DNA of 64,000 nucleotides from a virus, in IMG/VR virus record IMGVR_UViG_3300035698_006643, positions 8,744 to 72,743 of that record; one strand, 5' to 3'. The position numbers and the translations under genes are program-made. Position 1 is the stretch's first letter. Every line of letters starts with the position of its first letter. Positions 54,199-62,786 of the stretch are shown here, piece by piece. The notes beneath the pieces were generated by a model. The model saw nothing but the letters and a program-made list of their open reading frames with translations. It made no database searches and was not told the origin of the DNA.

Positions 54199-54855
54199 TT
54201 AGAGGTAGGAATCAAGAACAGCCCCTATCTTATAGGATGGAATTACAGCACTGTTTTCAGTCAGTATCCGAAAGACCTTCCATCCCCGTGCCGACAGGTC
54301 AGCATCACGAAGCATATCTTCAGCTTCAATTTCAGGATTCTGGTGGTACCGACCATCGAATTCAATGACAGCCCGCTGGTCAGGTAGAACAAGGTCAACG
54401 ATGTAAGGGCCAATAGGTTCTTCAAATTGGTAGGGTACTTCCATTTCATCAAGTAGTACCTTGATTTCAACATACTTCCAGGCTTCTCGTAGCCGAAGAA
54501 TTTCGTGAATAGGTAAGGCATTATCACAGTGCTGTCTTCCAGCTTCCCACCGTCGTTCTTTAGCTTCAGGGGATACGCACCTGTATCGAAGATAGTCGGC
54601 ACATTCATCTGAACAAGTCCTCCTGGCTTTACAGGTGTCCTTTACCTGGAAGACGGCCCCACAGACTACACACTTCTTGTCAATGATTTTGGCTGTTCGT
54701 CCCAAGAACTTGTTAGCGTGAATGGCACAACATGTCCTGCAACAGTACATCCCTCGGCCCTTTTTCAGAGCCCGGTTGACTTCACTCAATGCTTTCAGGT
54801 GCATCTTGCCGCAGTCAGGATTCTGACAACGGACTTCAGTCATTGTTCGTCCCAT
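54199..54855 (-). CDS. Free-standing DUF559/Vsr-like endonuclease with zinc fingers
   Basis: Two C..C...C...C units; YIVDL; IEFDGRYH; RDADL...GWKVFRI. Confidence 0.85.
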   Translation of the reverse strand: MGRTMTEVRCQNPDCGKMHLKALSEVNRALKKGRGMYCCRTCCAIHANKFLGRTAKIIDKKCVVCGAVFQVKDTCKARRTCSDECADYLRYRCVSPEAKERRWEAGRQHCDNALPIHEILRLREAWKYVEIKVLLDEMEVPYQFEEPIGPYIVDLVLPDQRAVIEFDGRYHQNPEIEAEDMLRDADLSARGWKVFRILTENSAVIPSYKIGAVLDSYL

Positions 54856-54861
54856 TTGACA

Positions 54862-54883
54862 CCTGGTTTCAAGAACTTGGACA
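54862..54883 (-). repeat. 22-bp exact copy of the TnpB element right end (62046-62067)
   Basis: TGTCCAAGTTCTTGAAACCAGG at both sites. Confidence 0.95.
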
Positions 54884-54946
54884 GTCAGTTGATGGAAGTG
54901 TCAAGGGGTAGTGAAACCCAGGGACAGCCTAATGAAATCGGTATAG

Positions 54947-55315
54947 TGGAGGTGGCGTGAATCGAACACGCGTCCGTTAAAGGGTCACTCTGCACGTCTA
55001 CGTGTGTAGGCAAAAGTGTTTGGGTTTCCCCATCTCGCCCTACGACCATCACTCTTGCCAGAAGTGTTCGTCAGGCTACCCTCGTTTGTCTTGTTTCCAT
55101 CAGCCCCGTGGGTACGGACTTCAGGCAGCAGACCGAATAAATGACGAAAGGGTCCAGGTCACAGTCTTCCCTGGTCTTTCGGGCTACGAGTTTTTACGCA
55201 GCCATGCGAACTGGTGTGTTTGCATTTAGTGTTTGCAACGCTTTTGACAGGGTGCGTTACCTCCCCGACACGCAATACAGGTTTCCGACTCCAACGTCGA
55301 AGCCATGTCACCCCC
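54947..55315 (-). ncRNA. ssrA: tmRNA; tag ANTPVRMAA* at 55194-55223
   Basis: 5' GGGGGTGAC...TTCGAC; acceptor stem with G3-U; T-arm GCGTG TTCGATT CACGC; resume context TAAAT GCA; promoter TTGAGG-17-TATAGT at 55337-55365. Confidence 0.95.
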
Positions 55316-55372
55316 AAAAAATCAAAGAACACAAGGACTATACACTGAGGTCACCTGTCCCTCAAGTTTCAG

Positions 55373-55454
55373 TGGGAACGGGGGGACTCGAACCCCCACG
55401 TCAAAAGACACTGGATCCTAAATCCAGGGCGTCTACCAATTCCGTCACGCTCCC
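55373..55454 (-). tRNA. tRNA-Leu(TAG)
   Basis: Cloverleaf; CTGGA-TTTAGGA-TCCAG; long variable arm. Confidence 0.95.
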
Positions 55455-60245: not shown

Positions 60246-60682
60246 TGACCCACCCCCTAGCCCACAGGTTTCGTACAGTGGGATGATACAACTGAGGTAG
60301 CTTAGATTCGGGGACCTTCTTCATCGGACTTCGAGTCCGTCTTGCTGTCAGCAAAGAACCGCCCGACGAACTTGAAAAGGACGTAGACCACAAAAGGCGA
60401 CCCGGTAGACCCAACGAACCAGATGTCAAACCCTGAGAGGTCGGATGTACACCCAACGATATCGTTCCCTTAGCCCCTGATTCTGACAAGGGCAGGTTCT
60501 AGGAGGCGGTTAAATACTTGCCCCCAGATTCGGTTTATAGTCTGTGGGTCTGTAGGTAAAGAAGGAGGTTGAAGCCGCTTCCTGAAAAGTTGGACAAACT
60601 TGGACAAAAAGACCTGACAACAACGCAAGGAGAAGCAACCTCCTAGAGGTTGCTAGTTTGTAACTTCAGATAAAATAAATAC

Positions 60683-60711
60683 TTGACAAGTCCCCGCAAT
60701 GTACCTATTAT
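60683..60711 (+). promoter_or_regulatory. sigma70 promoter overlapped by an inverted repeat (possible RHH operator)
   Basis: TTGACA-17-TATTAT; GTCCC...AAT...ATT...GGGAC at 60690-60717. Confidence 0.8.
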
Positions 60712-60717
60712 AGGGAC

Positions 60718-60864
60718 ATGAGAAAACGACCAACAAAACTTTATTTCGATCAGGATATTTGGGAATGGCTTCAAGTTGAGGCTCAACGTCTACGTTGTTC
60801 AGTAAGCGAAGTTGTTAGACGGCTTGCTTTGACTGAAATGACAAGACAACGAGAAAGTAGGTGA
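60718..60864 (+). CDS. Ribbon-helix-helix (CopG-like) protein, 48 aa, probably leaderless
   Basis: MRKRPTKLYFDQDIWEWLQVEAQRLRCSVSEVVRRLAL...; GTGA overlap with tnpB; below the ORF-track size cut-off. Confidence 0.8.
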   Translation: MRKRPTKLYFDQDIWEWLQVEAQRLRCSVSEVVRRLALTEMTRQRESR

Positions 60865-62060
60865 TCCTCTCCCACAAAATACGGCTTGCCCCAAATGAAG
60901 AGCAGGAAGCTTATTTTCGGCAAGCTTGTGGTGTCTCCCGGTTTACCTATAACTGGGCACTTGCCAGGTGGAAAGAAACCTACGAAGCTGGGGGGAAGCC
61001 CAGCGGCAGGTCGCTCAAGGTAGAGTTTAATGCGATCCGCCAAACGGATTTTCCCTGGACTTTCGAGGTTCATCGGGACTGTACAGCCGGGGCGTTTGAT
61101 CAGGTTCACTCAGCTTTTCAAGGTTTCTTCAGGCGTGCCAAGAAGGGCGGCAAGCCCGGCTACCCGAAGTTCAAGAAGAAAGGGCGCTGTAAGGACTCTT
61201 TCAGTATTGCCAATGATAAGTTCTCCCTCGACGGCAAGAAGATCCGGGTGCCGAAGCTTGGTTGGGTTAAAACGCGGGAAGCTCTGCGCTTCTCGGGAAA
61301 GATCATGTCCGCTGTTGTCAGCCGAACAGCGGACAAATGGTTTATGGCTATTGCTGTAGATATCGAAGTAGCCCGTCAGCCCCCGAAAATCAAGGGGGTT
61401 GTGGGGGTTGACCTGGGTATCGCTGCTCTGGCTACGATGTCCGATGGCAGGACGGTTCAGCACTCTCCGAGCTGGAGGAAACTGGAAAAGCAAGTGCGGA
61501 GGCTTCAAAAATCCGTGAGCCGGAAACAGAAAGGGTCAGCAAGCCGACGAAAAGCCGTTGTCAGACTGTCCCGAAAACACTACGAGTTGTTCTGTCTGCG
61601 CTTGGACACGTTGCACAAGCTAACAACAGGGCTGGTCCAGAACTACAAAGGGATTGCCATCGAAGACCTGAACGTCAAGGGGATGGTCAAAAACCATCAC
61701 TTGGCTCGGGCTATTTCCCGACAGGGCTGGTCTGAGTTCCGAAGGCAACTTGAGTACAAGTCCGTAATGCACGACAGGCAACTCGTCATTGCGGACAGAT
61801 TCTATCCCTCAACGAAGACTTGCTCGGGCTGTGGTGATATCAGGGCCGTTGCACTGTCGGAACGGATCTACAAGTGCTCTGTTTGTGGTTTATCCATTGA
61901 CAGGGATCTCAATGCTGCAATAAACCTTTCAAGGCTACCCGTGGGTAACGGGGATGATAAGCCGGTGGAGACAGAAGCCCTGGCTGGTCGATGTTTGACC
62001 AGTGAAACTACTGTCTGCGAAACCGGAACAAGGCTTGGGCAAGTTTGTCCAAGTTCTTGA
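60861..62060 (+). CDS. tnpB: RNA-guided nuclease TnpB
   Basis: GVDLG; IEDL; CSGC/CSVC; DRDLNAAINL; all three RuvC acidic residues present. Confidence 0.95.
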   Translation: MILSHKIRLAPNEEQEAYFRQACGVSRFTYNWALARWKETYEAGGKPSGRSLKVEFNAIRQTDFPWTFEVHRDCTAGAFDQVHSAFQGFFRRAKKGGKPGYPKFKKKGRCKDSFSIANDKFSLDGKKIRVPKLGWVKTREALRFSGKIMSAVVSRTADKWFMAIAVDIEVARQPPKIKGVVGVDLGIAALATMSDGRTVQHSPSWRKLEKQVRRLQKSVSRKQKGSASRRKAVVRLSRKHYELFCLRLDTLHKLTTGLVQNYKGIAIEDLNVKGMVKNHHLARAISRQGWSEFRRQLEYKSVMHDRQLVIADRFYPSTKTCSGCGDIRAVALSERIYKCSVCGLSIDRDLNAAINLSRLPVGNGDDKPVETEALAGRCLTSETTVCETGTRLGQVCPSS

Positions 62061-62067
62061 AACCAGG
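61930..62067 (+). ncRNA. omegaRNA scaffold overlapping the tnpB 3' end (5' boundary approximate)
   Basis: Stems CCGGT/ACCGG, GACAG/CTGTC, CTGGTCGA/TTGACCAG; terminal hairpin 62029-62059; pseudoknot CCTGG(61979)/CCAGG(62063). Confidence 0.75.
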
Positions 62068-62075
62068 ACCAAACC

Positions 62076-62786
62076 ATGCAACTGAAAATCGCTTACTCAG
62101 TCAACGCAGCAACAGTCTCACTGGAAAAAGCCAGGGCTTACGCCGAAGAAGCCTTCAAGAAAGCAGGACAGGACCTTGACAAGGTGCTTCCAAACTTCGA
62201 CAAGAACTACATGGTCTTACAGCGTCAATGCAAGAAAGCCATGAACGTACCTCGGATTCAAATGCCGGTCATTGAACCCAGTGACATCAACCAGTTCGCC
62301 AAAGATATCCAGAAAGGTCGGGTGGATATCTTCGCCCCCTACGCCAAAGGGAAATTCAAGTTCCCTGAATCGGCCAAGGATGAAGAATGGATTGGATTGG
62401 GATACGCCGACGGGTCTAAGACAGACGACGTAATCCGTGGGAACATCAAGAGCATCCCTGTAGGGAAACTGGTTCCGACCCAGTCTCAGATTTGGCTGGA
62501 CAAGATGATTGGGAACATCATCAAGTTTGGCCCAGTGAAGTCTGGGTCTCCGGTACTGTCGTTGACCATCATCGTGTCGAAGGAAGGTTACATCCTTGAC
62601 GGGCATCACCGTTACGGTCAAGCCACCCTGTGTGACCCTGGCCTCAAGATGAAGTCCCTATTCGTCCCCTTGCCTATCAAAGAACTTCTCGAGGTCGGGC
62701 GGGCCTATGGCGACTGGCTGGGGAATTCCCGTAAGGGGTCCTATCGAGAACGACTCGCCGCCTGGTTTGATTTCGACCACCAGTAG
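62076..62786 (+). CDS. ParB/Srx-like domain protein
   Basis: LVPTQSQI; IIVSKEGYILDGHHRY; N-terminal KIAYS motif. Confidence 0.75.
   Translation: MQLKIAYSVNAATVSLEKARAYAEEAFKKAGQDLDKVLPNFDKNYMVLQRQCKKAMNVPRIQMPVIEPSDINQFAKDIQKGRVDIFAPYAKGKFKFPESAKDEEWIGLGYADGSKTDDVIRGNIKSIPVGKLVPTQSQIWLDKMIGNIIKFGPVKSGSPVLSLTIIVSKEGYILDGHHRYGQATLCDPGLKMKSLFVPLPIKELLEVGRAYGDWLGNSRKGSYRERLAAWFDFDHQ

What the first reader, a model, noticed from the sequence alone, without database searches (positions are those of the whole stretch)
54840..54946. Orphan 22-nt crRNA-repeat-like half of the TnpB omegaRNA, 7 kb from the element
Seen: TGTCCAAGTTCTTGAAACCAGG at 54862-54883 (-) is identical to 62046-62067. In the omegaRNA this 22-mer starts exactly after the AGTT loop of the last hairpin. 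It pairs over 13 bp with CAAGGCTTGGGCA (62029-62041) and ends in the CCAGG that pairs with CCTGG (61979-61983). Known: type V CRISPR crRNA:tracrRNA pairs are thought to arise by splitting the omegaRNA at such a hairpin, with the 3' half becoming the repeat. Inference: this may be a one-unit trans guide (repeat + TGTCAAATGGGACGAACAAT) transcribed in the tmRNA trailer, giving the TnpB a second specificity. The simpler alternative is a scar of an earlier insertion. I found no TAM-flanked target in the window.
Basis: partly seen in the sequence, partly recalled or inferred. Interest (0 to 1): 0.85.

Follow-up and report, generated by a model that had tools for sequence, protein, structure and literature searches.

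The report
Solo right-end tip of IS607 element
A 22-base exact copy of the very tip of a TnpB-carrying jumping gene sits alone in front of a nuclease gene in a large phage; it is most likely a leftover of an earlier insertion that now doubles as that gene's ribosome-binding site, not a working second guide RNA.

Summary
The 22-mer occurs exactly twice in the 72.7-kb virus record, against none expected by chance. Comparison with four related elements shows it is the last 22 bases of an IS607-type TnpB element's right end. That is the 3' arm of the final omegaRNA hairpin plus the tail before the guide. This matches what the ISDra2 structure paper calls the crRNA-like region.

The trans-guide reading has no support:
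- There is one unit only, and no second repeat.
- No separate anti-repeat or tracr-like copy exists in the record.
- No other genuine orphan turned up in IMG/VR, JGI metagenomes or the one complete relative genome.
- Matches to the motif-flanked target stay at chance level.
- Predicted pairing needs both a truncated scaffold and a processed unit.

The relic reading fits better. In 5 of 5 close elements the right end lies 7-12 bases before an ATG. The orphan lies 6 bases before the ATG of a DUF559 endonuclease gene, and a 53%-identical homologue supports that start. The orthologous locus could not be fetched and no RNA data exist. The scan has reported solo omegaRNA remnants on other DNA before.

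The parts
54862..54883 (-). Orphan 22-mer, identical to the last 22 bases of the resident element's right end. It ends in CCAGG, 6 bases before an ATG.
54884..54945 (-). 62-base stretch between the tmRNA 3' end and the orphan. It shows no detectable similarity to the element and no significant complementarity to the 22-mer.
54946..55315 (-). Phage-encoded tmRNA gene (tag ANTPVRMAA), upstream of the orphan on the same strand. A promoter-like site lies at 55365-55337. No terminator-like site lies between the tmRNA and the orphan.
54199..54855 (-). P0002, 218 aa: zinc-ribbon N-terminus plus a DUF559 endonuclease domain. The start at ATG 54855 is supported by the homologue's MGRRM N-terminus. The stored gene call uses ATG 54843 (214 aa).
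54694..54712 (-). Unexplained 19-mer inside the P0002 coding sequence. It equals bases 5-14 of the 22-mer joined directly to bases +9 to +17 of its flank, a 17-base gap relative to the orphan locus.
60564..60608 (+). Left end of the resident IS607-like element, starting with GGAGG (which may be the target's Shine-Dalgarno/TAM). It is 89% identical to the left end of the closest relative and holds two direct TTGGACAAA-type motifs.
60718..60864 (+). 48-aa ORF of no known family, in the place where the closest relative has its serine recombinase tnpA.
60861..62060 (+). tnpB, 399 aa, with OrfB_IS605, Cas12f1-like TNB and HTH_OrfB_IS605 domains. Its stop codon (62058-62060) lies inside the 22-mer.
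61959..62067 (+). omegaRNA scaffold overlapping the 3' end of tnpB. Its structure is conserved in 5 related elements.
62046..62067 (+). Resident right-end tip: the 3' arm of the last hairpin plus the AAACCAGG tail. Homology among relatives stops after CCAG(G).
62076..62786 (+). P0003, 236 aa, no Pfam hit (DGHHR motif read by eye). Its ATG lies 8 bases after the right end.

Best explanation
The window is a fragment of a large phage genome that carries one tnpA-less IS607-type TnpB element at 60564-62067. This element family inserts right behind a GGAGG Shine-Dalgarno-like motif, a few bases before a gene's start codon, so that its right end (…CCAGG) replaces the ribosome-binding site.

The orphan 22-mer is the surviving tip of a second copy of such an element. 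That copy once sat in the ribosome-binding site of the DUF559 endonuclease gene P0002.

A later deletion or replacement, not made by the transposase, removed the left junction, the left end, the genes and the right end up to the loop of the terminal palindrome. IS607 excision itself is scarless. The tip was kept, and stays unchanged, because its AGG now serves as P0002's ribosome-binding site, 6 bases before the ATG.

Shown: the identity, the position within the right end, the typical right-end-to-ATG geometry, and the absence of any other part of an element.

Inferred: the former full copy, the deletion mechanism (an end point at a palindrome centre), and the ribosome-binding role.
For: 1. 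The 22-mer belongs to the element, not to the phage backbone. It is conserved at the 3' end of tnpB in 4 other contigs with unrelated flanks (L005, L059, L061, L062), and homology ends after CCAG(G).

2. In 5 of 5 close elements an ORF starts with ATG 7-12 bases after the right end: +8, +8, +9, +12, +7. The orphan has ATG at +6. The 53%-identical homologue P0125 begins MGRRM against MGRTM here, which supports that ATG.

3. The left boundary begins with GGAGG behind unrelated flanks in 6 of 6 elements where it could be seen: window, L005, L061, L003, L007 and one contig in runs X2/X3. A review states that IS607 TnpB TAMs are mostly AGGAG or GAGGG and that integration is at GG (passages).

4. 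Nothing else of an element is left at the orphan:
- the flanks against the element reach scores that 15-63 of 200 shuffles also reach;
- the flank against the left end alone is matched by 820 of 1000 shuffles;
- blastn-short of the element against the record finds only the 22-mer below E 0.01.

5. TnpA_S excision is scarless (passages), so a 22-base footprint needs another process.

6. The closest relative shows the full architecture: left end, MerR-HTH plus resolvase-domain TnpA, TnpB, right end.

7. No terminator-like site separates the tmRNA from P0002, so the tip probably lies in P0002's 5' untranslated region.
Against: No orthologous locus of a related phage could be examined, so the former full copy is inferred and not seen:
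- the neighbouring genes have no close relatives in IMG/VR;
- contigs of four runs show no alternative allele at the site, but cover outside X1 is thin.

The remnant starts exactly at the first base after the tetraloop. A random deletion end point would hit that place only a few times in a hundred. I explain it by the palindrome, without evidence.

A ribosome-binding role needs only about 5-8 bases, not 22, so perfect identity over 22 bases points to recency or to some other constraint.

The stored gene call starts P0002 at the second ATG, 54843.

The 19-base composite repeat inside P0002 is not explained by this model.

The record is only 16% complete by CheckV.
Confidence: 0.7

Rival explanations
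1. Natural split guide. The orphan is transcribed with the tmRNA trailer or the P0002 leader and cut out. It pairs through its first 14 bases with the anti-repeat (62029-62041) of an omegaRNA that lacks its own 3' arm. It then directs TnpB to GGAGG-flanked copies of its own flank, for example sibling phages whose P0002 ribosome-binding site is intact. This would be a one-spacer forerunner of a type V crRNA:tracrRNA system.
For: The unit begins exactly after the tetraloop and ends at the scaffold-guide boundary. This is the 'crRNA-like region' of the ISDra2 omegaRNA structure paper, which also proposes that tracrRNA-crRNA pairs arose by splitting there (passages). Citing papers report such splitting for TranC systems (passages).

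The unit is 22 of 22 identical to the resident right end. TnpB has its D, E, D and zinc-finger motifs (read; motif identities recalled).

No terminator-like site lies between the tmRNA and the unit. A truncated scaffold plus the free 42-base unit cofolds into the native hairpin with a gain of -12.5 kcal/mol.
Against: - There is one unit only, with no degenerate second repeat nearby. The TranC arrays described have 3-20 repeats of 32-38 bp next to the effector gene (passages).
- The 72.7-kb record holds no separate copy of the anti-repeat or scaffold, and nothing indicates a truncated omegaRNA.
- With the full omegaRNA the cofold gain is only -3.5 kcal/mol. With the unit in its native trailer, the minimum-energy dimer does not pair the 22-mer with the anti-repeat, even for the truncated scaffold.
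- No further genuine orphan was found. IMG/VR gave 1 stretch, a full element. JGI metagenomes gave 6 stretches: 5 at tnpB 3' ends and 1 inside an unrelated bacterial gene. The complete 157-kb relative genome has the right end only.
- GGAGG plus 13 bases of flank gave 0 hits in IMG/VR and 11 in genome contigs, against about 17 expected by my arithmetic. All 11 are ribosome-binding-site and start contexts, and none extends beyond 20 bases.
- The 'spacer' is constrained by P0002's start region.
Confidence: 0.05
2. Imported junction. The element never sat at this place in this phage. P0002, a free-standing homing-endonuclease-like gene, was copied in from another genome where a full element preceded it. 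The illegitimate recombination joint fell inside the right-end palindrome.
For: P0002 is a DUF559 endonuclease with zinc ribbons, wedged between a tmRNA and an exonuclease gene. It has only one relative above 30% identity in the searched protein collection.

The 62 bases upstream have no likeness to the element. The composite 19-mer inside P0002 hints at short-homology rearrangements in this gene's history.
Against: No donor was found. The orphan is identical to the resident element's tip, including G at position 8. That base is C in 3 of the 4 other elements (L005, L061, L062) and G in L059. This fits a local origin at least as well. The outcome is the same kind of object: a relic.
Confidence: 0.15
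3. Recombinase pseudo-site. The tip (one TGTCCAAG half-site plus the GG crossover) persists as a docking or recombination site for an IS607 TnpA supplied in trans.
For: The 22-mer contains the inverted copy of the TTGGACAAA-type motif that is repeated in the left end. A 13-base left/right inverted repeat exists, and the left-end motifs are conserved in relatives.
Against: No resolvase-domain gene is present in the record (the record is incomplete). The resident element itself lacks tnpA. IS607 ends are described as needing multiple subterminal repeats (recalled, not checked). No rearrangement joint was seen in contigs.
Confidence: 0.03

Closest known systems
Truncated or solo right-end remnants of IS200/IS605/IS607-family (TnpB) elements
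   Same: It is an exact piece of a transposon's right end, found alone, at a place typical for that family's insertions. It lacks the left end, the genes and any mobility.
   Different: It is only 22 bases long and keeps no folded scaffold. Remnants noted earlier in this scan keep 120-195 bases with the whole scaffold. Its inner boundary coincides with the loop of the terminal hairpin.
Stand-alone omegaRNAs of OMEGA systems, which work in trans with a compatible effector (Altae-Tran et al. 2021, as summarised in PMC10691335; passages)
   Same: It is a right-end-derived guide-proximal sequence with its own flank, in a genome that also encodes a matching TnpB.
   Different: Those loci hold a complete omegaRNA scaffold. 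This one holds only the last 22 bases and could not bind TnpB without a second RNA.
crRNA:tracrRNA pairs of TranC and type V CRISPR systems, said to derive from split omegaRNA/reRNA (Jin et al. 2025, Cell; not read, known here only through citing passages)
   Same: The orphan corresponds to the part of the omegaRNA that would become the crRNA repeat.
   Different: There is no array, no adjacent effector and no separate tracrRNA gene. The repeat would be 22 bases rather than 32-38, and no target was found.
ISDra2 omegaRNA architecture (PMC10097598; passages)
   Same: A tetraloop joins a tracrRNA-like part and a crRNA-like part. The 3' tail pairs far upstream to form a pseudoknot just before the guide.
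   Different: Here the tetraloop lies at -26 to -23 rather than -20 to -17. The element is IS607-type rather than IS605-type. The pseudoknot is not supported by covariation. No Rfam family matches this scaffold.

Membership tests
IS607-family TnpB element (resident copy, 60564-62067) | TnpB with OrfB_IS605/RuvC, zinc-finger TNB and N-terminal HTH domains | tested here: met
   Pfam: PF01385 at 1.3e-24, PF07282 at 2.5e-21, PF12323 at 2.8e-16.
IS607-family TnpB element (resident copy, 60564-62067) | Serine recombinase TnpA (MerR-type HTH plus resolvase catalytic domain) inside the element | tested here: not met
   A 48-aa ORF of no family stands in its place. No resolvase domain is found in the 72.7-kb record. 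The closest relative (TnpB 75% identical, left end 89% identical) has it: PF00239 at 5.9e-19 and PF00376 at 6.4e-11. The window copy is therefore a tnpA-less derivative.
IS607-family TnpB element (resident copy, 60564-62067) | Ends in GG, integrated at or behind GG, with a G-rich TAM (features as stated in review and preprint passages) | tested here: met
   The right end ends CCAGG in 4 of 5 close elements and CCAGC in L005. The left boundary is GGAGG in 6 of 6.
IS607-family TnpB element (resident copy, 60564-62067) | omegaRNA scaffold overlapping the tnpB 3' end and the right end | tested here: met
   Consensus fold of 5 elements: 93.8% of cells paired against 86.8% in shuffles, and 7 pairs with changes on both sides. 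No Rfam family reaches threshold, RAGATH-18 included.
Solo right-end relic (the orphan) | Sequence identity to a transposon end, beyond chance | tested here: met
   22 of 22 identical, none expected by chance.
Solo right-end relic (the orphan) | The rest of the element is absent at the locus | tested here: met
   no significant likeness of either flank to the element.
Solo right-end relic (the orphan) | Lies at a site of the kind the family inserts into | tested here: met
   ATG at +6, against +7 to +12 in 5 of 5 full elements. The start is supported by a homologue.
Solo right-end relic (the orphan) | Relatives show a full, empty or variably eroded site | not testable with these tools
   There are no close relatives of the flanking genes in IMG/VR.
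CRISPR/TranC-type crRNA locus | Two or more direct repeats separated by spacers | tested here: not met
   A single unit. No copy with 1-5 mismatches exists anywhere in the window, and the best nearby matches have 9-10 mismatches.
CRISPR/TranC-type crRNA locus | A separate tracrRNA (anti-repeat) gene | tested here: not met
   The anti-repeat occurs only inside the full omegaRNA. No other fragment of the element of 15 bases or more is in the record (the record is 16% complete).
CRISPR/TranC-type crRNA locus | The spacer matches foreign DNA next to the effector's motif | tested here: inconclusive
   0 hits in IMG/VR. 11 hits in genome contigs at about the chance level, all ribosome-binding-site and start contexts. 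The host is unknown.
CRISPR/TranC-type crRNA locus | A processed RNA bound by the effector | not testable with these tools
   No RNA run is listed for this DNA.

The most novel reading that the evidence does not exclude
The orphan is a naturally split guide caught at birth. A 22-base crRNA-like unit sits in the tmRNA trailer or P0002 leader. Paired with a 3'-shortened omegaRNA from the resident element, it lets the phage's TnpB cut sibling phages that still carry the intact GGAGG-flanked P0002 start region. The 22-base unit would then spread by break-induced copying. This would be the smallest known TnpB-dependent selfish unit and a living intermediate between omegaRNA and crRNA:tracrRNA.
Probability: 0.05. 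Interest if true: 0.85.

Novelty: new member of a known kind. Interest (0 to 1): 0.3.

Why it matters
As a relic, it is one more piece of transposon debris. It still has two small points of interest.

First, it documents that this phage-borne IS607/TnpB family repeatedly lands in Shine-Dalgarno sites and substitutes its own CCAGG for them. This makes insertion, and even partial loss, harmless to the downstream gene.

Second, the remnant happens to equal the crRNA-like half of the guide RNA. Current models say this is the raw material from which type V crRNAs arose. If such tips are ever used in trans, loci like this are where that step could be caught, and this one gives a concrete, cheap construct to test.

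Tried and rejected
Chance repeat: rejected.

Phage regulatory motif or promoter shared by two genes: rejected. The 22-mer is conserved at tnpB 3' ends in other contigs with unrelated flanks.

The 22-mer as the guide or target (flank) rather than the scaffold: considered because CTGAC precedes the orphan and also occurs at 60614-60618. Rejected because L005, L059, L061 and L062 keep the 22-mer and diverge only after CCAG(G).

Miniature left-end-plus-right-end element at the orphan: rejected.

Local anti-repeat in the 63 bases upstream: not significant. The duplex energy is -15.3 kcal/mol, and 80 of 1000 shuffles and 157 of 2000 random genomic 63-mers do as well.

The orphan region folds at -31 kcal/mol, z -2.06, and 5 of 200 shuffles fold as well. 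This is too weak to build on.

The extra TGTCA shared by the orphan's flank and L005's flank (25 of 27): the flanks of the other elements differ, so I treat it as coincidence or a mild target preference.

L060 (21 of 21 bases inside a bacterial thioredoxin-like lipoprotein gene, next to glmS and a Sua5-type gene by my reading of the translations): treated as a chance hit of a 20-base pattern in a very large collection.

Rfam: no family for the scaffold or for the orphan.

Cultured phages: only the tRNA-Leu matched, and nothing matched the element.

RNA evidence: no RNA holder is listed.

Contigs of runs X1-X4: no joint and no alternative allele was listed at either locus. Cover of the orphan outside X1 is thin.

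Supplements of papers were not opened. Jin et al. 2025 (Cell) was not readable here, and its split points and any single-unit cases in it may bear on the novelty claim. I did not search the literature specifically for 22-base or sub-scaffold omegaRNA remnants. Two searches on IS607 right-end remnants and TAMs found no such report.

Full report
What is there. The window is bases 8744-72743 of a 72,743-base IMG/VR virus record that CheckV rates 16% complete, so it is a fragment of a large phage genome. It encodes a tmRNA (54946-55315, minus strand; tag ANTPVRMAA) and three tRNAs. Nearby genes include a class II ribonucleotide reductase, a DNA methylase, an exonuclease and a macro-domain protein. 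Runs labelled salt lake metagenome hold the stretch, and none is an RNA run.

The observation. The 22-mer stands at 54862-54883 (minus) and 62046-62067 (plus) with no mismatch. No other copy with up to 3 mismatches exists in the window or in the whole record, and shuffles give none. A count up to 8 mismatches found nothing with 1-5. A blastn-short search of the whole element against the record found the 22-mer (E 6e-6) as the only non-self hit below E 0.01. It also found a 13-base inverted repeat between the element's own left and right ends.

What the 22-mer is. A 399-aa TnpB gene occupies 60861-62060 (Pfam OrfB_IS605, Cas12f1-like TNB and HTH_OrfB_IS605). Its stop codon lies inside the 22-mer. 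The closest relative is in a complete 157-kb phage genome. That locus (L005) has a TnpB 75% identical in protein and 73% in DNA, and a 45-base left end 89% identical to window 60564-60608. It carries the full IS607 layout: left end, a MerR-HTH plus resolvase-domain TnpA, an 86-aa ORF, TnpB and the right end.

The window's copy has a 48-aa ORF of no known family where TnpA should be. No resolvase domain is found in the record.

A scan of JGI metagenome contigs for the 22-mer, with position 8 free, returned 6 stretches:
- L057, the L005 contig again;
- L058, a short contig identical to the window's TnpB locus;
- L059, L061 and L062, three further tnpB 3' ends;
- L060, inside an unrelated bacterial lipoprotein gene, which I take as the chance hit expected at that collection size.

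In all five independent elements the sequence is conserved through …GAAACCAG(G/C) and unrelated afterwards. The 22-mer is therefore the last 22 bases of the right end.

The consensus fold of the five scaffolds places it as the 3' arm of the terminal hairpin plus an 8-base tail. That hairpin has 13 pairs, 90.8% paired, and one pair changed on both sides. Over the whole structure 93.8% of cells pair, against 86.8% in shuffles. The tail can pair with CCTGG at 61979-61983, but no covariation supports this.

The ISDra2 structure paper describes the same plan: a tracrRNA-like and a crRNA-like region joined by a tetraloop, with a pseudoknot before the guide (passages). No Rfam family matches the scaffold.

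Where this family inserts. In 5 of 5 close elements an ORF begins with ATG 7-12 bases after the right end: +8 (236 aa), +8 (65 aa), +9 (at least 40 aa, runs off the contig), +12 (at least 37 aa, runs off) and +7 (298 aa). A more distant element (L003, TnpB 49% identical) does not show this.

The left boundary starts with GGAGG behind unrelated flanks in the window, L005, L061, L003 and L007. The same holds for a contig of runs X2/X3 that shares only window 60564-60608 (loose ends). That makes 6 of 6 where the boundary is visible. L059 is cut by its contig end, and seven other loci gave no convincing left-end match and were left out.

A review states that IS607 elements end in GG, integrate at GG and mostly have AGGAG or GAGGG as TAM (passages). 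A preprint shows the strict GG requirement, scarless excision, and agreement between the target motif and the TAM (passages). The family lands in Shine-Dalgarno sites, and its CCAGG end stands in for the lost site.

The orphan in that light. The orphan ends 6 bases before ATG 54855 of P0002, a 218-aa protein with zinc ribbons and a DUF559 endonuclease domain. The only relative above 30% identity found in the 5.8-billion-protein collection, P0125 (53%), starts MGRRMIEVRCQ against MGRTMTEVRCQ here. This supports that ATG, although the stored gene call uses the next ATG, 54843. The orphan thus sits exactly where a right end of this family is expected.

Nothing else of an element is left:
- The 63 bases up to the tmRNA and the 81 bases downstream give local alignment scores against the element that 15 to 63 of 200 shuffles reach.
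- Against the left end alone, 820 of 1000 shuffles reach the observed score.
- The upstream stretch is not significantly complementary to the 22-mer.

IS607 excision is scarless, so the remnant must come from a different event. This could be a deletion or replacement whose inner end point fell at the centre of the right-end palindrome. Such a place is a plausible hotspot, but this is inference. Keeping the tip would preserve an AGG 6 bases before the start codon. That is also inference.

Tests of the trans-guide idea:
- There is one unit and no degenerate second repeat. The TranC arrays described in a preprint have 3-20 repeats of 32-38 bp beside the effector (passages).
- No separate anti-repeat or scaffold fragment exists in the record.
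- No other genuine orphan was found in IMG/VR, in JGI metagenomes, or in the complete relative genome, where only the right end itself matches with up to 3 mismatches.
- The predicted target, GGAGG plus 13 bases of flank, has 0 matches in IMG/VR. It has 11 in 596 billion bases of prokaryote genomes, where I expect about 17 by chance. All are ribosome-binding-site-plus-ATG contexts. Four orthologous Burkholderiaceae hits extend by only 2 more bases.
- In cofolding, a free 42-base unit gains -3.5 kcal/mol with the full omegaRNA and -12.5 with a scaffold cut after the loop. In its native trailer the unit keeps its own fold and does not pair with the anti-repeat.

In favour of the idea there remain the exact coincidence of the boundary with the tetraloop, the perfect identity, an apparently intact TnpB, and the lack of a terminator-like site between the tmRNA and the unit. 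I put it at about 5%.

Unexplained. Inside P0002, at 54712-54694 on the minus strand (codons N-K-F-L-G-R-T), is a 19-mer. It equals bases 5-14 of the 22-mer joined directly to bases +9 to +17 of its flank. This is the orphan locus minus 17 bases, with a 2-base TG overlap at the gap. Composite matches of 9+9 bases of this kind arose in 1 of 300 simulated windows. Part of it is less surprising than that figure suggests. Both G-R-T tripeptides sit at positions where the homologue also has G-R, so the second block is coding sequence that happens to use the same codons. The first block remains a coincidence I cannot explain. It may point to short-homology rearrangements in this gene's history.

Limits:
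- The orthologous locus in relatives was out of reach.
- No RNA data exist.
- The record is a fragment.
- Contigs of four runs show no alternative allele, but they cover the orphan well only in X1, the likely source.
- Jin et al. 2025 was seen only through citing passages.

Verdict. The repeat is real and its anatomy is read correctly. It is most likely (0.7) a solo right-end tip left by a lost IS607/TnpB copy in the ribosome-binding site of a DUF559 endonuclease gene. A further 0.15 goes to the variant in which the junction was imported with that gene. The split-guide reading is not excluded, but it has nothing beyond shape in its favour. Earlier notes of this scan describe solo omegaRNA remnants with full scaffolds in other phages. 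This one is shorter than any of them.

Noticed in passing
window 54694-54712 (-), against 54844-54879 (-): A 19-mer inside the P0002 coding sequence equals part of the orphan 22-mer joined to part of its flank, with a 17-base gap. Composite matches of this kind arose in 1 of 300 simulated windows. Origin unknown.
   Followed up: partly
window 60564-60568 and 62063-62078; L005, L059, L061, L062, L003, L007: This IS607/TnpB family sits behind GGAGG (6 of 6 left boundaries) and 7-12 bases before an ATG (5 of 5 close elements). It therefore lies in Shine-Dalgarno sites, and its CCAGG end can replace the site.
   Followed up: partly
window 60609-60864: The resident element has no tnpA. A 48-aa ORF of no known family stands in its place, behind a TTGACA…TATTAT promoter-like site that I read by eye. 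The relative L005 has TnpA plus an 86-aa cysteine-rich ORF there.
   Followed up: partly
window 60590-60602 against 62040-62052: There is a 13-base perfect inverted repeat between the left and right ends, and two direct TTGGACAAA-type motifs in the left end. These are probably TnpA binding sites. A preprint describes IS607 elements as lacking inverted repeats.
   Followed up: no
window 60563/60608, contigs of runs X2 and X3: A contig in two other runs shares only the 45-base left-end core and has different sequence on both sides. A further element of this family lives in the same community.
   Followed up: no
flanks after the right end: orphan, L005, L003: Three of 7 right-end flanks begin with TGT, and the orphan and L005 share TGTCA. 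This may be a target preference of the recombinase, or coincidence.
   Followed up: no
L060 938-958: 21 of 21 bases of the 22-mer occur in frame inside a bacterial lipoprotein gene on a contig with ordinary housekeeping genes and no tnpB. I take it as a chance match.
   Followed up: partly
L064, L068, L069, L070: Four Burkholderiaceae genomes carry GGAGG plus 15 bases identical to the orphan's flank at what looks like the start of a conserved gene. The count is within chance for the collection, and the phage's host is unknown.
   Followed up: partly
window 54946-55315 and 55372-55454: A phage-encoded tmRNA with a short tag (ANTPVRMAA) lies directly beside a tRNA-Leu(TAG). The CCA end is not fully encoded, by my reading.
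   Followed up: no
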